From the NCBI GenBank assembly GCA_963810905.1, contig CAWEPG010000002.1, positions 242,178 to 306,177 on the forward strand: DNA of 64,000 bases, given 5' to 3'. The notes under the pieces were generated by a model. It did not search any database and was not told the origin of the DNA. It saw only the letters and a list, made by a program, of their open reading frames with translations. Source of the DNA: an uncultured Acidimicrobiia bacterium. GTDB taxonomy: Bacteria; Acidobacteriota; Terriglobia; Versatilivoradales; Versatilivoraceae. Positions 9,769 through 41,845 of this stretch are shown here, one piece after another. Numbering within the stretch: the stretch's first letter is position 1; the number at the start of each line of letters is the position of its first letter. The translations under genes were made by a program, and so were the position numbers.

Positions 9769-9823
9769 GCCTAACCCATCCATCGATCGGACCTTCACCG
9801 GCCGCCCATGTCAAAGGTTAGGC
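9769..9823 (+). other. attC-like site with perfectly complementary inverse core GCCTAAC (9769-9775) and core GTTAGGC (9817-9823)
   Basis: The R'' consensus RYYYAAC and R' consensus GTTRRRY are both matched exactly, 55 bp apart. The site sits between the stop at 9753 and the next ATG at 9836. Confidence 0.6.
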
Positions 9824-9835
9824 TAGGGAGTTTAT

Positions 9836-10255
9836 TTGTATAAGACAATAGCCTTGATCTTGATACTTCTCTCCCGGTTTGATCTCGCGCAGACGAAGTC
9901 GAACGACATATACAACATTAAGGTATTGAAGCAGACGGAAGAATCTGTACTGTTTGAAATCTCATATTATTACTCCGGAGATCATGGCGATAACGCCAAA
10001 CTGACTGCCTGGCCTAAGCCTGCTGGCTTTTGGGGTTCGTCCATAATTCCGCTTGTGATGGGAGATCATACGTCACAGTTGAATGTAAAGTTAATGCCTA
10101 AGGCCCCGAAAGAAGTACTCTCCGATTCCGTAGATTTTTTTTACTATTCCGACAGTGGTCCACCGTTCTACACAAAGAACTTTACCTTTAAGAAAAAATG
10201 GATAAATTCAACTGGAAAGCCTGTCACACAGGCTAAGCAGGTTGAGAAGAACTGA
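9836..10255 (+). CDS. Secreted hypothetical protein (GC ~37 %)
   Basis: Signal-peptide-like N-terminus MYKTIALILILLSRFDLAQT, 139 aa. Confidence 0.5.
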   Translation: MYKTIALILILLSRFDLAQTKSNDIYNIKVLKQTEESVLFEISYYYSGDHGDNAKLTAWPKPAGFWGSSIIPLVMGDHTSQLNVKLMPKAPKEVLSDSVDFFYYSDSGPPFYTKNFTFKKKWINSTGKPVTQAKQVEKN

Positions 10256-10395: not shown

Positions 10396-12697
10396 ATGAT
10401 CGGTAGAAAACTTGCCCATTACGAGGTGCTCGCGAGGATTGGAGCCGGAGGCATGGGTGAGGTGTATCGAGCCCGGGACTTGAGGCTCCAACGGGAGGTT
10501 GCCATCAAGATTCTGCCGTCTGAGCTTCCTTCGAGTTGGGAGGAACGAGAACGTCTTAAGCGCGAGGCAAGGACCCTCGCTACGCTGAATCATCCCAATA
10601 TCGTCACGGTCTACTCGGTGGAGGAGGCGGACGGGACCCACTTTGTCACCATGGAGCTACTGGATGGAGAGACTCTTGACAAGATCGTGGCCGGCGGCGG
10701 CTTGTCCCAGGAACGCTTCACCAGTCTCGCTTTGCAACTGCTCGATGCAATGCGTGCGGCCCACGGGCAAGGTGTCGTGCATCGGGATCTGAAGCCCGGC
10801 AATATTATGATTACCGCTGAACAACGGCTTAAGGTCCTCGACTTTGGCCTGGCAAAGGTCTTTCTCGGTAAAGCCACGGAGAAACCATCCTCTGAACAAA
10901 ATGATCTCTCCACGCGACTTTTTACTCATGCAGGGACTATTCTGGGCACCATCTCCTATCTCTCCCCCGAGCAAGCGCAGGGGAAACCGGTCGACCATCG
11001 TTCTGACATTTTCAGCCTGGGCATCATTCTTCATGAGATGAGTGTGGGCCGGCATCCCTTTCCCGGCGAGAGTGCAGCGGAGGTCATTTCCTCGATCCTG
11101 AGGGATACTCCTTCTCCGATCGGGGATCGCGAATCACCCTGGCTCCTGCGAATGCGCCCCATCATCGAGCGTTGCTTGGAGAAGGACCCGGCGCGACGCT
11201 ATCAAGAGGTCTCGGACATCGTCGCTGATTTGATCACGCTCCGAGAAGTACCGACAGCTTATATTGAGACCAGGGCGGTTGAGGATCTCGTCCAGGCGGG
11301 CCGCGAGGCCCTGGGCCGGCATTCCTGGTCAAGAGCCTTTGAATACCTGGAGCGAGCAGATGCGGCGGGAGAGCTCTCTCCCGACATCCTCGGGCAGTTT
11401 GCCGAGGCCGCCTGGTGGACTGGAAAGATAGATCACTGCTGCCACCTGCTCGAACGGGCCTATGCAGGCCATTTGCGGGAGGGGCATCCAGAACGTGCGG
11501 CCCTCATGTCGGTGAAGCTAGCAGACCTCTTCTATCACAAGGCCGCTCGCTCCGTGAGTAGTGGCTGGCTGAAAAAGGCGGAGAGGCTCCTAAAAAACGC
11601 TGAACATGCCGCGGAGTACGGATACCTCTTGCGCTTCAAAACGCTCCTCTCCTTTGAGGTCGACGGGGATTCCGAGGCCGCATTACGGCTTTCGAAAGAA
11701 TGCTTCGATATTGCCAATCGGGCTGGGGACGAAAACCTACTCACTCTGAGCCTTCAGGACCAAGGGCGAGTTCTGGTTGCCCAGGGTCACGTTTCAGAGG
11801 GCATGGCGCTCCTCGACGAAGCCATGGCCACAGCCTTGAGCGGAGAACTTGACCCCTTCACTGTGGCCAGGACGTACTGCAATATGATCGCCGCTTGTGA
11901 AAAAACGGCCGACTATCGGCGGGCTGCAGAGTGGAGCGACGAGGCACGGGATTGGTGTGAACCCCACGTCAGTTCGCCATTCCCAGGGATCTGTTCGGTG
12001 CATCGTGCGGGGCTGATGCGTCTCCGAGGAACTTTGAAAGAAGCCGAGCACGAAGTGGGTCAGGTCTGTGCAGACTCCCGTGGCTATGTCGATATCGCGG
12101 CGGCAGCTTTCTATGAGATGGGTGAAATCAGATTGCGCCTGGGGAACTACGAAGGTGCTGAGGACGCCTTTCGCGAGGCCCATGAACGAGGCCGAGACCC
12201 GGTTCCTGGCCTTCCGCTCCTTGCTTCTGGCCCAAGGGAAGGTAGACGCTGCCAAGGGCTTGATGACGCGGGCACTAGCCGGATCGCTCCTGCCCCTGGA
12301 TCGTGCACGGCTGCTTCCGACGCAGGTTCAGATTGCTCTGGCCGCCGTGGACGTCGAAGGAGCAAGGGCAGCTGTAGAGGAACTCGAATCAATCGCCTCT
12401 CGATTCGGCTCGGCTGCTTTCGAAGCTGCGGCTGCACACGCCCGCGGGAGCCTAGATATTGCCAACCGCGACTTCGAGAAGGGGTGCACGAGTCTTCGGC
12501 GGGCGCTCGAGTTCTGGTTGGAGGTCAACCTTCCGTATGAGGCTGCCATGACGCGAGTGCTTCTCGCCAAGGGCTATCGTGAAATGGGGGACGGAGCCAG
12601 CGCGGAGCTCGAGCTTCGCACGGCTCGATCGGCTTTCGAGAAGCTCGGTGCGCAGGAAATCTCGGGGGAGTCTGACACCCTGCTGAGTGCTGGGTGA
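10396..12697 (+). CDS. Ser/Thr protein kinase with C-terminal TPR-like helical repeat region; frameshift ~12185-12195
   Basis: The sequence has GAGGMGEVY (a glycine loop), HRDLKPGNIM and DFGLAK. The C-terminal alpha-helical repeats continue in the +1 frame at 12068-12697. Confidence 0.75.
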
Positions 12698-13350: not shown

Positions 13351-13590
13351 CGGTGCAATTTATGGTTTAGCCGGATGTCCCTTCGATAGCGGTATTGGGA
13401 CATTCGCCGAGCAGCCTCATGGAAGCTGGCCCTTGATCCGGAAACAATAACTGGAGGGGGGGCTCTGCGACGCCGAAGCCGAATTTGGAATTCGAGCTAA
13501 AGAGAAATAACTCGCACATACATGGCTTGATTTTGCCTGGCCGGCGCAGCATTTTTATTCACTGCCAGATGGGTCAAAAAGGGTTCGATC

Positions 13591-14028
13591 TTGGGTTCGG
13601 GGGGAAAGAGATCCTTCCAGGAATGCATGTGGTGGAAACGTACAAACTGGACAGCCCAGTCGGCGTCGAAGCGCTCCGTATGGATTGAATACCGGTGAAT
13701 CCAGAGGACCTGACGGCCCTCCTCCAGAATTTAGGCTGTTTGCTTTTGCCGGGCGAAGGCAAAGCTTTTGTTCGAGAAGCGGCACTTCGTTTACGCGGTT
13801 TGTGTGATAATAGGCAAGTGGCAAAAGTGCCTGAAAACCAAATTATTATCACATTATCAACGCAATAGTGCCTGGTAATCAATGGTTCCTCGGATGCGCA
13901 TAGCCCCATCCATCGGCTCTTCGGCGCTGCGCGCCTCAGAACCAACGGATCGAGCTACGTACTCGCCTGATAACCGGTGCGTCAGTGCACCGGTTATTTT
14001 GACTGCGCCGCGCTCATCCGGGGCGTTA
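13591..14028. repeat. Three-copy repeat, copy 2 (full length; hairpin 13960-13987)
   Basis: Aligns with 5246-5612 and 16333-16619. It ends ...GGGGCGTTA, 30 nt before the ATG at 14059. Confidence 0.8.
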
Positions 14029-14058: not shown

Positions 14059-14622
14059 ATGGTTGAGATAATTGAATTCGAAACCGAACGTCTTCGCTTG
14101 CGTCAGTGGCTTCCTGCTGATCGAGAACCGTTCGCCGCTCTGAATGCCGATCCAAAAGTTATGGAATTCTTTCCTGCTACTCTCGATTACGCCGCAAGCA
14201 ACACCCTAGCTGATCGCTGTGAGGCATTTATTGCTGAGCGGGGTTGGGGTCCATGGGCTGCTGAGATAACGAGAAGCAACCAATTCATTGGATTTGTTGG
14301 CCTTCATGTTCCTGCCCCTGAGCTTCCATTTTCGCCTTGTGTCGAAATTGCCTGGCGGCTAGCCTTCCATCATTGGGGTAAAGGCTTCGCGTCGGAGGCC
14401 GCGAGAGGCGCCCTACGTGTTGGCTTTGAATTGCTTAGCTTGCCGGAAATCGTGTCGTTTACCACGGTTCACAATCTCCGGTCGCGTGCCGTCATGGAAC
14501 GGCTCGGTATGCACGAAACCAAAGATGTCTTTGAGCACCCTCATGTGCCGGCAGGCAACCCTCTTCGTCTACACTGCCTGTATCGGTTGTCGCGCGAACA
14601 GTGGCTGGCACATCCCGTATAA
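14059..14622 (+). CDS. GNAT family N-acetyltransferase (RimJ/RimL-like)
   Basis: 187 aa. The pattern LRLRQWLPADREPFAALNADPKVMEF ... HHWGKGFASEAARG is typical of RimL-type GNATs. Confidence 0.7.
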   Translation: MVEIIEFETERLRLRQWLPADREPFAALNADPKVMEFFPATLDYAASNTLADRCEAFIAERGWGPWAAEITRSNQFIGFVGLHVPAPELPFSPCVEIAWRLAFHHWGKGFASEAARGALRVGFELLSLPEIVSFTTVHNLRSRAVMERLGMHETKDVFEHPHVPAGNPLRLHCLYRLSREQWLAHPV

Positions 14623-14628
14623 TACGTC

Positions 14629-14673
14629 GCTCAACCTGACTCGCGGTGCTGGCGCGCCGCTCGCGGGTTAGCT
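14629..14673 (+). other. Short attC-like palindrome (GCTCAAC ... GGCGCGCC core ... GTTAGCT)
   Basis: A perfect RYYYAAC (GCTCAAC) lies 7 nt after the stop. The right end is GTTAGCT. At 45 bp it is shorter than typical attC sites. Confidence 0.3.
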
Positions 14674-14680
14674 CTGCGTT

Positions 14681-15982
14681 ATGCCGACCGACGATTCTCA
14701 GTCCTCCGAGAGCCGAGACATGAATCAACGCCAAACATTGCCTCACGGTGTAGTTCTGGTGCTCGGGCTGGCGGTGCTGCTCAACTATGTTGATCGCGGC
14801 AACCTCGCGACGGCAGCGCCGATCTTGCAGGACGAGCTCTCACTCTCGGGCGCCCAGGTCGGCTTATTGTTGTCGTCGTTCTTCTGGGTGTATGCACCTG
14901 CGCAGTTGCTGGCAGGGTGGCTGGTGCACCGTTACGAGATCCGCATTGTTCTGGCCGCGGGCATCGCGCTGTGGTCTGTGGCGACCGCCATGACTGGGCT
15001 TGCCGGGGGATTCGCTTCAATCCTGCTTTGGCGCCTGATGCTCGGTCTCGGAGAGAGCGTCACATTTCCGAGCTGGCAGTTGCTACTCGCGCGACACACA
15101 GTCGAGCATGAGCGTGGGCGGGCGAATGGCTTCGTAGGCGCCGGCCAGGGGATCGGGCCGATGCTCGGCACTCTCTTTGGCGGCCTGGCGATGGCCCACT
15201 ACGGTTGGCGTGCCACGTTCATCGGGCTGGGGATCATCACGCTCCTGTGGCTCTGGCCTTGGTTTACCGTTACACGAGTGGGCTTTCATGCGCCGGCTGG
15301 GAAGGATCCGCTGCCGGTCTCATACCTTGCGATCCTTCGGCGGCGGGAGTTCTGGGGCGCCGCACTCGGACATTTCAGCATCAACTACACGTTCTACTTC
15401 GTTATCACGTGGCTGCCGACTTTCCTCGTCAAGGCGGGCGGTTTCACGGTCTCGCAGATGGCGGGGATTGGCGCGGCTATCTATGGCATCTATGCTGTCA
15501 CGACGGCGCTCGCTGGTGCGGCCTCTGATCGTTGGATCCGGCGTGGCGGATCCGCTACGCGAGTGCGCAAGACGTTCGTGCTCACGAGTGCCCTTGGCTC
15601 GGCAGTCACGATCGCGTGCTGCGCGTACGTAGAGCCGCGCGCTGCGGTCTGGTTGCTCGGCGTTGCAGGAGTGTTCTTCGGCCTTTCAACGCCGATGATC
15701 TTCGCCATCGGCGCGACGCTCGCAGGTCCGCGTGCCGCAGGCCGCTGGGCCGGCGCGCAGAACCTGGCGGGCCAACTGGCAGGAATAATCGCGCCAGTCG
15801 TGACGGGCTTAATCGTCGATCGTACTGGCGCCTTCTCCTGGGCATTCGCCGTCGCCGCGGCGTCGGCCGTGTTCGCGATGGTGGCGTGGGGCGTCGTCAT
15901 TCGGCGGGTGGCAGCGGTGCAGTGGCCGGAGGAGCTGGCGCCAGTCCCCTTAGAGCCCCTTGGTGGCGCGAGCCCGCGCTGA
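14681..15982 (+). CDS. MFS transporter (high GC)
   Basis: 433 aa with about 12 predicted TM segments. MFS-like loop motifs are present, for example LGESVTFPSWQLLLARH. Confidence 0.7.
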   Translation: MPTDDSQSSESRDMNQRQTLPHGVVLVLGLAVLLNYVDRGNLATAAPILQDELSLSGAQVGLLLSSFFWVYAPAQLLAGWLVHRYEIRIVLAAGIALWSVATAMTGLAGGFASILLWRLMLGLGESVTFPSWQLLLARHTVEHERGRANGFVGAGQGIGPMLGTLFGGLAMAHYGWRATFIGLGIITLLWLWPWFTVTRVGFHAPAGKDPLPVSYLAILRRREFWGAALGHFSINYTFYFVITWLPTFLVKAGGFTVSQMAGIGAAIYGIYAVTTALAGAASDRWIRRGGSATRVRKTFVLTSALGSAVTIACCAYVEPRAAVWLLGVAGVFFGLSTPMIFAIGATLAGPRAAGRWAGAQNLAGQLAGIIAPVVTGLIVDRTGAFSWAFAVAAASAVFAMVAWGVVIRRVAAVQWPEELAPVPLEPLGGASPR

Positions 15983-16092: not shown

Positions 16093-16410
16093 ATGAAGAA
16101 TCTGCGACGCGAGAGGGCTTTAGCCCATCAGGCGCTTGTCCCATCCACGGGGTCTTGGTGTTGGCTTGAATCCGTCATCCTGGCCTTCGGATTCCCAGCC
16201 GTGATTTGGGCGATTTCGAAGCTCATTACGCTGTTCGTCCCAGCCGCCCTCCACAGTTCTAGGGAACAGCGCTTTCTGCAATACATCAGTGGGGGATTGA
16301 TCGCCGAGTGGCTGTTTGTCGCCAGCCTTTGTTTGGGTTCGGTGGGAAAGAGATCCTCCCGGGAATGCCTGTGGTGGAAACGGACAACCTGGACAATCCA
16401 ATCAATGTAG
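16093..16410 (+). CDS. Hypothetical membrane protein. Its C-terminus runs into repeat copy 3, so the call is doubtful
   Basis: 105-aa ORF. The 5' end overlaps a copy of the MITE terminal motif (GAATCTGCGACGCGAGAGGGC). Confidence 0.25.
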   Translation: MKNLRRERALAHQALVPSTGSWCWLESVILAFGFPAVIWAISKLITLFVPAALHSSREQRFLQYISGGLIAEWLFVASLCLGSVGKRSSRECLWWKRTTWTIQSM

Positions 16411-16619
16411 GAGCGCTCCGTATGGATTGAATAGTGGTGAACCCGGAGGACCCGACGGACCTCATCCAGAATTTAGGCTGTTTGCTTTTGCCGGGCGACT
16501 TTTGTTCAAGAAGTGGCACTTAGTTTACGCGGTTTGTGTGAAAATATGCAAGTGGCAAGAGTTCCCGAAAACCAGGTTATTATCAACTTACCAGGGTAAA
16601 ATTGCCTGATAATCAATGG
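16333..16619. repeat. Three-copy repeat, copy 3 (5' module only; the 3' structured module is missing)
   Basis: Homology to copies 1 and 2 stops at ...TGATAATCAATGG, 32 nt before the ATG at 16651. Confidence 0.75.
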
Positions 16620-17195: not shown

Positions 17196-17264
17196 GCCCA
17201 ACCCCTCATTCCACCGGACCTTGCGCATAAAGCCGCGCAAGTCCGGTGAATTCAAACGTAGGGC
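17196..17264 (+). other. attC-like site: GCCCAAC - 9 nt - CACCGGAC(C)TTGCGC - loop ATAAAGCC - GCGCAAGTCCGGTG - 9 nt - GTAGGGC
   Basis: The left core is a perfect RYYYAAC. The 14-bp arms are inverted repeats with one extrahelical C. The spacers are symmetric. The right core is one mismatch from GTTGGGC. Confidence 0.55.
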
Positions 17265-26006: not shown

Positions 26007-26222
26007 GTGGGAGATAACCGAACACGACCGTTAGGAATCCAAATGCAATTTAGTGATTGGGTGGCCGAACGCGTTAGAACAGTGCCTCAAGATCGTAACG
26101 AAGCATCTGAGTGGAAGATGTTTGGCAGTCTCCCATTCATGTCCCGAGGTCACATGTTTGTCAGCATTCTCGACAACACACTCATGGTGCGTAAGGGGCC
26201 AGACCCGTTGGCTCCTTCCTGA
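26007..26222 (+). pseudogene. Truncated TfoX/Sxy N-terminal-domain protein (paralog of 30483-30811)
   Basis: KMFGSLPFMSRGHMFVSILDNTLMVRKGPD is about 60 % identical to the same block at 30557-30650. The ORF stops after 71 aa, about 30 residues short of the paralog. Confidence 0.5.
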
Positions 26223-30482: not shown

Positions 30483-30811
30483 ATGGCATTTGACGAAGGG
30501 TTGGCCGACGTATTAGGAATGTCCTTCGAGATCGCAAGGAAATAGTTGAGCGTAAGATGTTTGGCGGCCTCGCTTTTATATATCGTGGTCATATGTTTGT
30601 CGGAATTCTCGGCGACACACTCATGGCGCGTGTGGGTCCAGACCATTACGCCGAAGCACTGCTTCAGCCCGGAGCGAAAGAGATGGACTTCACCGGAAAG
30701 CCGATGAATGGGTATGTCTTCGTTGCACCTGTCGGCATTGATGCTGACTCCGCGCTTGAGCGTTGGATCGCCCAGTGCCTAACATTTGTGGGATCACTCC
30801 CTCCAAAATGA
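30483..30811 (+). CDS. TfoX/Sxy N-terminal-domain protein; 1-nt frameshift near 30505-30515 separates the first 9 codons from the rest
   Basis: MAFDEGLAD is in one frame. RIRNVLRDRKEIVERKMFGGLAFIYRGHMFVGILGDTLMARVGPD is in the +1 frame. Confidence 0.6.
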
Positions 30812-30955
30812 GCGCGGCTCGCTCGCCTGACCCTGCGAGACCGTTGGGTTTGGATGAACTGTCTTGCTCCAAAAGGCAATAATAACCAAATAAGCGTACG
30901 TCGCAGAAAGGTTGCACCCATATTGGTAGAATATCATCGGAAGGAGGTGAAAGCT

Positions 30956-34487: not shown

Positions 34488-37400
34488 ATGATCAATTCGG
34501 ACGTTAGACGTCAACAGCTTAGAGATTTGTTGGATCAGCGCATTGTCATTATTGACGGTGCCATGGGTACCATGATCCAAGGCTACAAGCTTGAAGAAAG
34601 AGATTTCCGAGGGGAACGACTCCTCAGTCATCCTTGTGATCTGAAGGGAGATAACGACCTACTGTCTCTCACTCGCCCGGACATTATTGAATCGATCCAC
34701 CACCAATTTTTGGAAGCCGGCGCTGACATCATCGAGACGAATACCTTTAATTCTACTGTGATCTCCCAAGCAGACTACAAGTTGGAATCACTGGTCTATG
34801 AAATCAACCTGGCTGCCGCCAAGGTTGCCAGAAAAGCAGTTGAAGCAGCGATGGCCAAAGATCCAGGTCGGCCGCGTTTTGTTGCGGGCTCGCTCGGCCC
34901 CACCAACAAGACTGCCTCCATGTCCCCTGACGTCAACAACCCCGCCTACCGGGCCGTGACGTTTGATCAGTTGGTGAATGCCTATTACGAACAGGTCTGT
35001 GCGCTGGTTGAGGGCGGCGTCGATTGTCTGCTGGTGGAAACGACCTTTGACACCCTCAATCTCAAAGCCGCTCTGTTCGCCATAACCCGGTATTTGGAAG
35101 AACAAGGCGTGGATATTCCTGTCATGGCCTCCGTCACGATCACTGATGCCAGTGGACGGACACTTTCAGGGCAGACGATTGAAGCGTGCTGGATATCGAT
35201 TTCCAACGCTCCCCTTCTGAGCGTCGGAATTAACTGTGCCCTCGGCGCGACTGAAATGCGCCCTTATTTGGAAGAGTTGTCGGGACTCGCCCCTGTATAT
35301 CTCAGCTGTTACCCGAATGCGGGCTTGCCTAATTCCTTCGGCGAGTACGATGAAACCCCGGAAAAGATGGCCGCGACCTTAAAGGAATATGCCGCGAACG
35401 GCTGGTTGAACATCGTGGGTGGGTGTTGTGGCACCACGCCTGCTCATATTCGTGCCATTGCCGAAGCTGTCCGGCCTTTTAAACCAAGGGCTCTCCCCGT
35501 TGTTCCCGGGTACAGCCGCTTGAGCGGCCTGGAGGCTCTCGTCATTCGTCCCGACACGAACTTTGTCAATGTTGGCGAGAGGACGAATGTCACGGGGTCC
35601 CCGAAATTTGCCAAACTCATCTTGAACGGAAATTACGAAGAAGCCCTTTCCATTGCTCGCCAGCAAGTCGAAGGCGGCGCCCAGATGATTGATGTCAACA
35701 TGGACGAAGGTCTCCTCGATTCCGAGAACGCCATGGTGACATTCCTGAACCTGATCGCCTCGGAACCTGACATTGCACGTGTCCCTATCATGATTGACAG
35801 TTCCAAGTGGAGTGTCATCGAAGCGGGATTGAAGTGTGTCCAAGGTAAAGGCATCGTCAATTCCATCAGCCTCAAGGAAGGTGAAGAGGTCTTCAAGCAT
35901 CACGCTGGCCTCATCAAGCGCTATGGTGCAGGTGTGATTGTGATGGCTTTCGATGAAACTGGACAAGCCGACACATTGGAAAGGCGAGTGGAAATTTGCA
36001 CACGCGCCTACCGGATCCTGACGGAGGAGATTGGGCTTCCCCCTTCCGATATTATTTTCGATCCCAATATCCTGACGATTGCGACCGGGATGGACGAGCA
36101 TAACAATTACGCAGTCGATTATATTGAAGCGACCCGGCGAATCAAGGCCACGCTCCCTCATTGCAAAGTGAGTGGCGGGGTCAGCAATCTTTCATTTTCG
36201 TTTCGCGGGAATAATGTGGTTCGAGAAGCGATGCACTCGGCCTTTCTCTATCACGCCATCCAGGCAGGTATGGATATGGGAATTGTCAACCCGGGCCAAT
36301 TGACCGTCTACGAAGAAATTCCGAAAGACCTTCTAGAACTGGTAGAGGATGTCATTCTCAATCGTCGCCCTGACGCCACCGAGCGGTTGATTACATTTGC
36401 CGAAAGTGTCAAGCAGAAGGGGAAAACTGAGGTTCAAGAGGACAGTTGGCGTCAAGAGCCCGTTGAAGAGCGTCTGAGTCATGCTTTGGTAAAAGGGATT
36501 GTCGAATACATCGAAACGGACACGGAAGAAGCCCGGCAGAAGCTCCCCAAGCCGCTGGACGTGATCGAAGGACCGCTGATGGCCGGGATGAATATCGTTG
36601 GCGATCTGTTTGGGTCAGGCAAAATGTTTTTGCCGCAGGTGGTCAAGAGCGCGCGGGTCATGAAGAAGGCCGTTGCTTATCTATTGCCATTCATGGAAAA
36701 AGAGAAGGAAGCGAGTGGTCTGCGGCGGGCTGTCGGCAAGATCTTGACGGCCACGGTCAAGGGGGATGTCCACGATATCGGGAAAAACATCGTGGGCGTT
36801 GTGCTGGGATGCAATAACTACGAAGTGATTGACCTGGGTGTCATGGTCCCATGCGACAAACTTCTGAAGACCGCCCGCGAGCTGGGAGTTGATATGATCG
36901 GCTTGAGCGGATTGATCACGCCCTCGCTTGACGAAATGGTTCATGTCGCCAAAGAAATGGAGCGAGAAGGATTCAAGATTCCGCTCCTGATTGGCGGCGC
37001 TACCACTAGTCGTGTGCATACAGCTGTGAAGATTGCGCCAGCCTACTCAGAACCAGTAATTCACGTGCTCGACGCTTCCCGCGCCGTGGGTGTCGTTGGG
37101 AGTTTAAGAAACCCTGCCTTAAAGCCAGTTTTTGTGGAGAACTATCGTCTGGAACAGGAAAAAGCTCGGGAGGAGCATAAGGGGAAGAAAGCTCAGCGGC
37201 CACTACTCAAACTTGAGGATGCCCGCAGAAAGAAGTTTACCCCGGAATGGAATCCTTCTGTTGTCTATCGACCGTCATTCACGGGGGTTAAGGCTTATGC
37301 TGATTTTCCGCTGGCGGAAATTGTCCCGTATATTGACTGGACTCCATTGTTTCATACTTGGGAACTTCGTGGTGTCTTTCCCCGAATTCTTGACCAAGAG

Positions 37401-38183
37401 GGCATCGGTCCAAAAGCGAGAGAGCTTTATGCCGATGCACAGGAACTCCTCTGCCGGATGGTCGAACAGAAGCTGGTGACTGCCCGTGCTGTCATTGGTT
37501 TTTTCCCTGCAAATTCTGTGGGCGATGATATTGAGGTTTATGCCGACGATTCCCGAACTGGCGTGCTTACTGTATTGCACACGTTGCGCCAGCAGACCGA
37601 CCGGCCCGACGGGCATCCCAATTTGGCTCTTGCCGATTTTATCGCTCCCCGCGAATCGGGACTGGCTGATTTCATCGGAGGTTTTGCGGTGACGGCAGGA
37701 ATCAACCTGGATGTCCTGGTAGAGAAATTCGAAAAGGATCACGACGACTACAACTCGATCATGGCGAAAGCCCTCGCCGACCGTTTGGCAGAGGCACTCG
37801 CGGAACTCATGCACCTTAAGGCCCGCGAGGTATGGGGGTTTGGAAAAAACGAGACACTCAGCGTCGATGACCTGATTCACGAGCGTTATCAGGGCATACG
37901 TCCAGCGCCCGGTTACCCGGCTAGCCCGGACCACACCGAGAAGCGTCTGCTCTTTGACCTGCTGCAAGTTGAGAAGAAGACGGGCATCCACTTAACTGAA
38001 AATTTTGCCATGCTCCCGGCAGCTTCCGTCAGTGGTTTTTACTTTTCCCATCCGGAATCGAGGTATTTTTCCTTGGGTAAGATTGAGCAGGATCAAATAT
38101 TGGATTACGCGAGACGAAAAGGGATGGATGTTAAGACCGTTGAACGCTGGCTTGCGCCTAACCTTAATTATGATCCGGAATAA
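34488..38183 (+). CDS. metH: Cobalamin-dependent methionine synthase
   Basis: 1231 aa with a homocysteine-binding N-terminus, pterin-binding domain, B12-binding DxHxxG-type region and an AdoMet activation domain. Confidence 0.95.
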
Positions 38184-38410
38184 GTTAACACTGGCGTCGC
38201 AGAGCTCCGCCCTCCACACGCGTACAATTCCCCCTCACCTCCAACTCCTCTCCCGCGCTGGGGAGAGGAGAGCCGACAATTTATTTTCTGGAATGGAGGG
38301 TCGAGCTCCTGCGAGACCGGAATTCCCGACAGGCCAGGAGGCCTGTCGCTACTTAGAGGAGTCGTGTCCTCGCTCCAGACGTAGTGAATCATCAAGAGGA
38401 CATTAGATTC
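38184..38410. repeat. MITE-like repeat, copy 2: inverted ends 38198-38220 and 38288-38313 around a perfect 10-bp hairpin CTCCTCTCCC/GGGAGAGGAG
   Basis: The ends match the terminal motif of copies 1 and 3. The interior matches 420-470 inverted. Confidence 0.65.
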
Positions 38411-41699: not shown

Positions 41700-41845
41700 A
41701 AAATCAGTAGACGTCGTCGCGGAGCTCCGCCCTCCAACCATCGAATTAATTACATGCTGGAGGGTCGAGCTCCTGCGAGATCGGATGAAAGCAATGGTGG
41801 AACGCTCGCGTGGGACGCGGTCCACGCGCGCTCCACCTGATAGCG
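41700..41845. repeat. MITE-like repeat, copy 3 (ends 41714-41736 and 41757-41782 form a ~70-bp near-perfect hairpin)
   Basis: TCGCGGAGCTCCGCCCTCCA ... TGGAGGGTCGAGCTCCTGCGAGA. Confidence 0.65.

What the first reader, a model, noticed from the sequence alone, without database searches (positions are those of the whole stretch)
9769..9823. attC-like site with perfect inverse-core/core pair GCCTAAC ... GTTAGGC
GCCTAAC (9769-9775) matches the RYYYAAC consensus exactly. GTTAGGC (9817-9823) matches GTTRRRY exactly and is its reverse complement. The two are 55 bp apart. The site lies between the stop of the oxidoreductase gene at 9753 and the RBS/ATG of the next low-GC gene at 9836. Here GC drops from ~62 % to ~37 %.
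Basis: seen in the sequence. Interest (0 to 1): 0.7.

Follow-up and report, generated by a model that had tools for sequence, protein, structure and literature searches.

The report
Eroded integron attC site after a mobile gene
The 55-base palindrome-like site is a genuine but weakened integron recombination site (attC) that ends a horizontally mobile oxidoreductase gene cassette, inside a decaying cassette array whose integrase gene survives only as fragments. This is ordinary, well-understood biology.

Summary
GCCTAAC (9769-9775) and GTTAGGC (9817-9823) are there, but that motif pair alone is not significant (0.35 expected per window).

Four other lines of evidence show it is an attC site:
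1. Cassette boundaries. The oxidoreductase gene recurs at 80-88% protein identity in genomes assigned to many phyla. Similarity starts at a GTTRRRY-type box about 25 nt before the start codon and ends at the GTTAGGC-type box of the downstream site. The next gene recurs elsewhere, and similarity there starts exactly at GTTAGGC.
2. Similarity to a known attC. 47 of 55 bases match the attC of the clinical aacA4/aac(6')-Ib cassette. The site's first 17 bases occur in more than 120 metagenome contigs, many of them dense attC arrays.
3. Covariance models. Models I built from class 1 attCs align it end to end: 15.9 bits, E 0.14, with aacA4 left out; 25.2 bits, E 4e-4, with it.
4. Context. Nine other same-strand hits scored E below 1, and three pseudogenised integrase 5' fragments lie in the window.

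The site is eroded. It has two broken L-stem pairs and a short loop, and folds at only -9.9 kcal/mol. No intact integrase is present.

Verdict: supported; a new member of a known kind; low to moderate interest.

The parts
9769..9823 (+). attC recombination site of the oxidoreductase cassette (55 nt)
   Evidence: Full-length covariance-model alignments. 47 of 55 bases identical to the aacA4 attC. Cassette boundaries shown by comparison with other loci.
9769..9775 (+). R'' box (inverse core) GCCTAAC. Its TAA is the stop codon used by the L001-L005 homologues.
9776..9780 (+). 5' half of the unpaired central spacer, CCATC
   Evidence: Same layout as 13 class 1 attCs; model alignment.
9781..9790 (+). 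L'' box CAT[C]GATCGG. C9784 is the bulge (an extrahelical G on the bottom strand). T9787 departs from the family consensus G.
9791..9801 (+). Short variable terminal structure ACCTTCACCGG. A9791 is bulged (an extrahelical T on the bottom strand).
9802..9810 (+). L' box CCGCCC-ATG. C9806 departs from the family consensus T.
9811..9816 (+). 3' half of the unpaired central spacer, TCAAAG
9817..9823 (+). R' box (core site) GTTAGGC. The inferred crossover lies between G9817 and T9818.
   Evidence: Similarity of the left cassette ends here and similarity of the right cassette starts here.
8732..9817 (+). Oxidoreductase gene cassette (1086 bp): TTAGGCCC... ORF ... attC ... G
   Evidence: Similarity to L001-L005, L007, L010 and L072 begins at the GTTRRRY-type box about 25 nt before the start codon and ends at the R' box.
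8758..9753 (+). Zinc-type alcohol dehydrogenase / quinone oxidoreductase ORF (331 aa, GTG start)
   Evidence: Pfam ADH_N, ADH_zinc_N_2. 80-88% identical homologues in genomes assigned to many phyla.
8731..8737 (+). Degenerate R' box ATTAGGC of the preceding cassette (A where the crossover G should be)
   Evidence: No covariance-model hit for a site ending here.
9818..10255 (+). Start of the next cassette, with its ORF 9836-10255 (139 aa, signal-peptide-like N terminus, TTG start)
   Evidence: The L097 homologue shares sequence from GTTAGGCTAGG onward behind a different upstream gene. The L098 homologue has its own attC.
6038..6093 (+). Neighbouring attC, the strongest in the window
   Evidence: 35.9 bits, E 5e-7; 35.1 bits.
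7458..7532 (+). Neighbouring attC
   Evidence: 24.6 bits, E 6e-4.
8158..8223 (+). Neighbouring attC
   Evidence: 20.1 bits, E 0.0095.
14617..14684 (+). attC further down the array
   Evidence: 28.1 bits.
17196..17264 (+). attC further down the array (R' eroded to GTAGGGC)
   Evidence: 31.0 bits; sequence.
5239..5346 (-). Integron-integrase 5' pseudogene fragment, copy 1 (36 codons, internal stop)
13500..13730 (-). Integron-integrase 5' pseudogene fragment, copy 2 (77 codons)
   Evidence: TIGR02249 positions 2-68, E 1.3e-8, and PF13495; coordinates.
16332..16472 (-). Integron-integrase 5' pseudogene fragment, copy 3 (47 codons)
   Evidence: tblastn with IntI1; TIGR02249, E 1.3e-5.

Best explanation
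Positions 9769-9823 are the attC recombination site of an integron gene cassette. The cassette runs from 8732 to 9817 and carries a zinc-type oxidoreductase gene.

Mechanism, inferred from what is established for attC sites: when the bottom strand is single-stranded it folds into a hairpin. GCCTAAC pairs with GTTAGGC (the R box), and CAT/GATCGG pairs with CCGCCC/ATG (the L box). A 5/6-nt unpaired central spacer separates the two boxes. A bulged G and a bulged T mark the bottom strand. An integron integrase binds this fold and cuts between G9817 and T9818. The cassette can then be excised as a circle or joined to attI or to another attC.

Shown here: the site has this architecture; both neighbouring cassettes break at exactly that G|TT in unrelated genomes; and the site belongs to the attC family that includes the clinical aacA4 cassette.

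Inferred: in this genome the site is a relic. It has two broken L-stem pairs, a minimal loop and a weak fold. The partner site upstream has lost its crossover G. The window holds only three pseudogenised integrase 5' fragments. Recombination is therefore probably rare, and would need an integrase encoded elsewhere.
For: 1. Cassette boundaries.
- The ADH protein has 80-88% identical homologues in genomes labelled delta-proteobacterium, Terriglobia, Gemmatimonadales, Thiobacillus, Chitinophagaceae, Nitrosospira and Chloroflexaceae.
- Upstream similarity starts at a core-site-like box (GTTAGCC or GTTAAGC in L001, L002, L004, L010 and L072; degenerate in L005 and L007) about 25 nt before the start codon.
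- Downstream similarity ends at GTTAGGC or GTTGGGT.
- In L001-L005 the ORF runs on to the TAA inside the R'' box.
- The downstream gene's homologue in L097 shares sequence from GTTAGGCTAGG onward, behind a different upstream gene.

2. Covariance models.
- R1 was built from 13 class 1 attCs with aacA4 left out. The left-out aacA4 control scored 31.8 bits.
- R2 gives 25.2 bits, E 4e-4 on the + strand and 8.6 bits on the minus strand.
- The homologous cassettes' sites score 37.1 (L001), 24.7 (L002) and 16.5 (L005) bits.

3. Family membership.
- 47 of 55 bases are identical to the aacA4 attC.
- The 17-mer GCCTAACCCATCCATCG is in more than 120 metagenome contigs. Many are dense attC arrays, and two carry a full-length IntI 56-58% identical to IntI1.
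- The L stem shows compensatory variants.
- Across 135 distinct sites, 95.4% of cells pair. 135 cells are changed on both sides, against 24 +/- 4 in shuffles.

4. Context.
- Ten of the eleven R2 hits with E below 1 are on the + strand, between 6 and 29 kb, at ORF ends.
- Three fragments match the integron-integrase family.

5. Fold.
- The R boxes are paired, with bulged G40 and T33 on the bottom strand.
Against: - The fold is weak: -9.9 kcal/mol, z = -2.1. The aacA4 site folds at -22.9 and the 78-nt family consensus at -30.
- Two of the nine L-box pairs are mismatched.
- At 55 nt it is shorter than any family member seen (57 nt or more).
- The independent model's E-value (0.14) is only just above the noise. 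The best minus-strand hits in the window score 10-14 bits.
- The models are home-built with short calibration. They are not the published IntegronFinder model.
- The window has no intact integrase.
- Taxon labels of metagenome-assembled genomes that carry mobile cassettes may be unreliable.
- No recombination was observed.
Confidence: 0.9

Rival explanations
1. It is an attC by descent but is now completely inactive. On this view it is a fossil boundary in a dead array, with no present recombination role.
For: - Two L-stem mismatches and a weak fold.
- The upstream partner box is ATTAGGC.
- Several neighbouring sites have eroded AAC/GTT triplets, such as GTAGGGC at 17258-17264 and GTATAAT at 14617-14623.
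- Only integrase pseudogene fragments are present.
Against: - Both R boxes are still perfect.
- The spacer lengths and the bulge position are canonical.
- Integron integrases are known to tolerate varied attC sequences (PMC4889954).
- An integrase could be encoded outside the window.
Confidence: 0.45
2. It is a chance inverted repeat in an intergenic region, with no relation to integrons.
For: The bare motif pair is expected 0.35 times per window. The fold z-score is only -2.1.
Against: - 85% identity to a validated attC.
- Exact cassette boundaries on both sides in unrelated genomes.
- A same-strand cluster of attC hits.
Confidence: 0.02
3. It is a transcription terminator or attenuator hairpin for the oxidoreductase gene.
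For: It lies 15 nt after a stop codon and can form a stem.
Against: - The terminator scan finds nothing here.
- The stem encloses a 37-39 nt loop region.
- No T-run follows; the next bases are TAGGGAGTTTAT.
- The + strand folds worse than the minus strand: -7.8 against -9.9 kcal/mol.
Confidence: 0.02

Closest known systems
attC of the aacA4 / aac(6')-Ib cassette of class 1 integrons (72 nt)
   Same: - Same R'' box GCCTAAC.
- Same layout: 5-nt spacer (CCATC here, CCTTC in aacA4), L'' of CAT[C]GA.., L' of ..ATG, 6-nt spacer TCAAA(G/C), and R' of GTTAG...
- 47 of 55 bases identical.
   Different: - 17 nt shorter, with a smaller terminal loop.
- Two L-stem mismatches.
- Fold energy of -9.9 against -22.9 kcal/mol.
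- It follows an oxidoreductase gene, not a resistance gene, on a chromosome-like contig.
Environmental attC family GCCTAACCCATCCATCGAGCGGACG...CGCCGCTCATGTCAAACGTTAGGC, found in dense metagenomic cassette arrays
   Same: - Identical first 17 nt, and a near-identical last 19 nt.
- The family's arrays sit next to IntI1-like integrases in L109 and L212.
   Different: - Family members are mostly 72-78 nt and score 45-65 bits with R2; this site is 55 nt and scores 25 bits.
- The window's own integrase fragments are only 36-38% identical to those integrases.
- The other attCs in the window are of different sequence types.
CALIN (cluster of attC sites lacking an integron integrase), as defined for IntegronFinder (PMC4889954)
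   Same: At least two attC hits with E below 1, less than 4 kb apart, on one strand, with no functional integrase nearby.
   Different: - Recognisable integrase pseudogene fragments are present. The paper reports these for only about 5% of CALINs.
- Unusually, there are three copies inside the array.

Membership tests
integron attC site | Inverse core RYYYAAC (R'') and core GTTRRRY (R') at the two ends, complementary to each other | tested here: met
   GCCTAAC / GTTAGGC, 7 of 7 complementary. Consensus as stated in PMC5027507.
integron attC site | A second inverted pair (L''/L') set off from the R boxes by an unpaired central spacer | tested here: met
   The 5-nt and 6-nt spacers and the 3 + 6 bp L box are in the same register as 13 class 1 attCs. 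Seven of the nine L pairs form; two are mismatched.
integron attC site | Extrahelical bases on the bottom strand near L'' | tested here: met
   The predicted minimum-energy fold of the bottom strand has bulged G40 and T33. The G is at the same place as in the aacA4 fold. This is a prediction only.
integron attC site | Stable bottom-strand hairpin | tested here: inconclusive
   -9.9 kcal/mol, z = -2.1, with 8 of 200 shuffles folding as well. This is much weaker than aacA4 (z = -5.9) or the family consensus (z = -6.4).
integron attC site | Length in the usual range (about 57-141 bp; my own knowledge) | tested here: inconclusive
   55 nt. The shortest relatives found are 57-62 nt.
integron attC site | Lies at the 3' end of a cassette ORF in the same orientation, with cassette boundaries at G|TT of R' | tested here: met
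   Similarity breakpoints of the left cassette and of the right cassette.
integron attC site | Scores with an attC covariance model (IntegronFinder keeps E below 1) | tested here: met
   Surrogate models built from class 1 attCs: R1 gives E 0.14 and R2 gives E 4e-4. Threshold from PMC4889954. The published attc_4 model was not available.
integron attC site | Recombined by an integron integrase | not testable with these tools
   Needs a conjugation or excision assay.
complete integron | Intact intI next to the array | tested here: not met
   tblastn with IntI1 finds only an N-terminal fragment in the window. All three copies are short and carry stop codons.
complete integron | attI site next to intI | not tested
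   The leader downstream of each integrase fragment is conserved, but no attI model or assay was applied.
CALIN | Two or more attC sites less than 4 kb apart on one strand, without an integrase | tested here: met
   Sites at 6038, 7458, 8158 and 9769 are spaced 0.7-1.6 kb apart on the + strand. Definition.

The most novel reading that the evidence does not exclude
The array may be more than a dead integron. Three dispersed copies of the same module (integrase 5' end plus leader) sit inside one cassette array, each followed by different cassettes. This could mean the integron platform's attI-proximal segment was itself copied or moved within the array. The oxidoreductase cassette carries an attC of the IntI1-like/aacA4 family, while the host's integrase fragments belong to a distant lineage. 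This would record cassette flow from proteobacterial-type integrons into a Planctomycetota-like chromosome, and would place the attC lineage of the clinical aacA4 cassette in soil and freshwater arrays.
Probability: 0.2. Interest if true: 0.5.

Novelty: new member of a known kind. Interest (0 to 1): 0.3.

Why it matters
attC sites and chromosomal cassette arrays are textbook, so the main value is correct annotation. This window holds a decaying integron, about 6-29 kb by attC hits, whose cassettes include a widely shared oxidoreductase.

Three modest points of wider interest:
- The same cassette recurs at 80-88% identity in genomes labelled as many different phyla. It is a clear example of cassette-level horizontal transfer.
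- Its attC belongs to the family that includes the aacA4 resistance cassette. That family is abundant in environmental metagenomes and sits next to IntI1-like integrases, which bears on where clinical cassettes come from.
- The site is a natural, minimal (55 nt) and partly mismatched variant. It could be used to test how much L-stem pairing and loop length an integrase needs.

Tried and rejected
- Rfam scan of the whole window: no hits. Rfam evidently has no attC family, so this says nothing.
- Exact-sequence look-ups of the kinase and the ADH proteins: not on record.
- Strict RYYYAAC...GTTRRRY pattern search: only five pairs in the window.
- Energy-ranked search for relaxed AAC...GTT pairs: this did not reveal the array, because most sites here have eroded R boxes. 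Covariance models were needed.
- MAFFT alignment of full-length class 1 attCs misaligned the L' boxes. I replaced it with a trimmed 50-column alignment and a hand-written structure.
- The tyrosine recombinase upstream of the ADH cassette in L072 could not be called an integron integrase. Its best NCBIfam match is XerC-like and below cut-off. The L010 ORFs gave nothing.
- The protein search with the 77-aa integrase fragment returned only proteins of 135 aa or fewer. This looks like a length limit of the candidate step, so it does not show a stand-alone small-protein family. The hits read like N-terminal pieces of full integrases.
- The terminator reading was rejected.
- No attC was found for the cassette that starts at 9818, nor for a site ending at 8737.
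- The pair GCCTAAC 30777 ... GTTGGGT 30849 fits the consensus but neither model scored it.

Full report
**Observation**

The sequence is as described. GCCTAAC is at 9769-9775 and GTTAGGC at 9817-9823. They are exact reverse complements and extend to an 8-bp stem, GCCTAACC/GGTTAGGC. The site lies between the TAA (9751-9753) of a zinc-type oxidoreductase ORF (8758-9753; ADH_N and ADH_zinc_N) and the next ORF.

Three details need correcting:
- The site is 55 nt end to end, not two boxes 55 bp apart.
- The next ORF starts at 9836 with TTG, not ATG. Homologues start with GTG or ATG at the same place.
- GC falls from 62.4% to 42-44%, not to 37%.

The motif pair is not significant by itself. It is the only perfect pair in the window, but block shuffles give 0.35 per window and 29% of shuffles have at least one.

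**Fold**

As single-stranded DNA, the bottom strand folds with the R boxes paired (9 pairs, counting one G-T). CAT pairs with ATG, and the inner stem is interrupted. G40 and T33 are bulged. The energy is -9.9 kcal/mol with z = -2.1. The top strand folds less well, at -7.8.

The topology matches that of the aacA4 attC, but the stability is far lower. The aacA4 site folds at -22.9 (z = -5.9) and a 78-nt relative at -30 (z = -6.4).

**Comparative evidence (the decisive part)**

I scanned one genome per species for relatives of the oxidoreductase. Homologues at 80-88% protein identity turned up in metagenome-assembled genomes labelled delta-proteobacterium, Terriglobia, Acidiferrobacter, Gemmatimonadales, Thiobacillus, Chitinophagaceae, Burkholderiales, Bacteroidetes, Chloroflexaceae and Nitrosospira. 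That spread fits a mobile gene.

- Upstream, nucleotide similarity to the window begins at a core-site-like box about 25 nt before the start codon: GTTAGCC in L001 and L002, GTTAAGC in L004, L010 and L072. Everything to the left is unrelated. The window has ATTAGGC at 8731-8737, so the crossover G has been lost.
- Downstream, L001, L002 and L005 carry G(G/C)CTAAC ... GTTAGGC/GTTGGGT at the same spot. Their ORFs run on to the TAA inside the R'' box, and the flanks after the R' box are unrelated.
- The gene to the right (9836-10255) has homologues up to 89% identical. In L097 the shared sequence starts at GTTAGGCTAGG, behind an alpha/beta-hydrolase gene instead of the oxidoreductase. In L098 the homologue is followed by its own attC at 27 bits.

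Two different cassettes therefore meet at G9817|T9818. Each is found elsewhere with a different partner. That is the signature of attC recombination.

**Covariance models**

Rfam holds no attC family, so I built surrogates.

I fetched class 1 integrons from ten plasmids and read their attCs off the cassette ends. All share one register: R'' of 7 nt, a 5-nt spacer, 3 bp, a 1-nt bulge, 6 bp, the loop, 6 bp, 3 bp, a 5-6 nt spacer, and R' of 7 nt.

Model R1 used 13 of these sites, trimmed, with that structure. The aacA4 site was deliberately left out.
- Controls: the left-out aacA4 attC scored 31.8 bits, and an untrained orfF-type attC scored 37.7.
- In 409 kb of other loci, R1 hit only sites in loci carrying close ADH-cassette homologues (L001-L005), including the attC immediately after the gene in L001, L002 and L005.

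Model R2 was rebuilt from 22 plasmid hits, including aacA4.
- The finding scores 25.2 bits (E 4e-4) on the + strand and 8.6 bits on the minus strand.
- Ten of the eleven hits with E below 1 are on the + strand, between 6 and 29 kb.
- The sites after the homologous cassettes score 37.1 (L001), 24.7 (L002) and 16.5 (L005).

IntegronFinder keeps attC hits with E below 1 and clusters those less than 4 kb apart on one strand (PMC4889954). By that rule this is an attC inside a cluster. My E-values are rough, and the best minus-strand hits in the window reach 10-14 bits. R1's 15.9 bits is therefore only just above the noise.

**Family**

The site is 47/55 identical to the aacA4/aac(6')-Ib attC, with a loop 17 nt shorter.

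These give 90 distinct sites, mostly 72-78 nt. The consensus is GCCTAACCCATCCATCGAGCGGACG...CGCCGCTCATGTCAAACGTTAGGC. The shortest sites are 57-62 nt.

The L stem shows compensatory variants: GAGGGG/CCCCTC, GAGCTG/CAGCTC, GAGAGG/CCTCTC and GAGCCG/CGGCTC.

Against that consensus the window site has two single changes, T9787 and C9806. Each breaks one pair.

Many of the contigs are dense arrays; L127 and L147 have about twenty attCs each, at 45-65 bits. L109 and L212 carry a full-length integrase 56-58% identical to IntI1, facing away from the array.

On 135 distinct aligned sites, 95.4% of cells pair. Eleven of 16 pairs show changes on both sides. 135 cells are changed on both sides, against 24 +/- 4 in shuffles and at most 37 when the partner is slid. 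That alignment was fitted to the model, so it leans towards the structure.

**Context in the window**

From about 4 to 34 kb nearly all ORFs are on the + strand, and GC varies from gene to gene (0.43-0.67). Their families are typical of cassettes: GNAT, MFS, DUF1697, SnoaL, methyltransferase, glycosyltransferase, MOSC, YCII, OsmC, AHSA1, ArsR, ecotin, CobW, hydrolase and globin.

metH (34488-38183) and the genes beyond it look like core genome. DUF1501, PSD1 and PSCyt2 proteins at 43-47.5 kb suggest a Planctomycetota-like host; this is an inference.

There is no intact integrase. A repeat of about 380 nt occurs three times (5238-5612, 13591-14028, 16333-16619). Its minus strand encodes the first 25-77 residues of an integron integrase. 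Integron-integrase models (TIGR02249, E 1.3e-8, and NF011946) are the only NCBIfam hits, for copies 2 and 3, and the copies carry in-frame stops.

Several neighbouring attCs have eroded AAC/GTT triplets. I read the whole as an old, decaying integron, or a CALIN with integrase pseudogenes (definitions).

**Mechanism and status**

Established knowledge of attC sites (PMC5027507; PMC4889954) gives the mechanism. The folded bottom strand is bound by IntI, the extrahelical bases set strand choice, and cleavage occurs between G and TT of the R' box.

Shown here: the architecture, the breakpoints and the family membership.

Inferred: the activity. The weak fold, the two mismatches, the dead upstream partner and the missing integrase make present-day recombination doubtful. 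I put about 45% on the site being a pure fossil.

**Verdict**

This is a new member of a known kind. Interest is low to moderate.

Noticed in passing
5238-5612, 13591-14028, 16333-16619 (minus-strand coding at 5239-5346, 13500-13730, 16332-16472): Three dispersed copies of one module: the pseudogenised 5' end of an integron integrase plus its conserved upstream leader. Each copy is truncated at a different point and each is followed by different cassettes. Copies 1 and 2 also share a further structured stretch of about 190 nt ending in GGGGCGTTA. Several integrase remnants inside one array is unusual.
   Followed up: partly
L099-L218 (metagenome loci); for example L127 1-9443, L147, L103, L110: The 17-mer GCCTAACCCATCCATCG marks a large environmental attC family, mostly 72-78 nt, found in very dense cassette arrays. 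Two contigs (L109, L212) carry integrases 56-58% identical to IntI1. The attC of the clinical aacA4 cassette belongs to this family.
   Followed up: partly
379-477 and 38183-38279; also 3830-3874, 13453-13475, 38294-38321, 41715-41785: A dispersed REP- or MITE-like element (GGAGGGCGGAGCTCTGCGACGCC plus a CCCCTCGCCCCAGCG...GGAGAGGGG module). One inverted pair of about 100 nt brackets the whole array together with metH. One copy sits exactly where integrase fragment 2 is cut off.
   Followed up: no
26059-26205 and 30498-30644; 30777-30849: Two copies (74% identical) of a short TfoX-like coding remnant lie in stretches that otherwise look intergenic. The second ends in GCCTAAC ... GTTGGGT, which fits the attC consensus, but neither covariance model scored it.
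   Followed up: no
534-1385 and 1745-2917 (minus strand); 2942-3694 (minus strand): A prolyl oligopeptidase is split into separate catalytic and beta-propeller ORFs, next to a truncated zinc-dehydrogenase ORF. These are probably pseudogenes at the left edge of the array.
   Followed up: no
9751-9753 versus 9772-9774: The oxidoreductase stops at a TAA seven codons before the in-frame TAA inside the R'' box. L001-L005 use the later stop; L007, L009, L010, L021 and L072 also use the earlier position.
   Followed up: partly
10396-12540: A 714-aa Ser/Thr protein kinase with TPR repeats sits inside the array, between the small secreted-protein cassette and integrase fragment 2. No recognisable attC lies on either side. 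It is much larger than a typical cassette.
   Followed up: no
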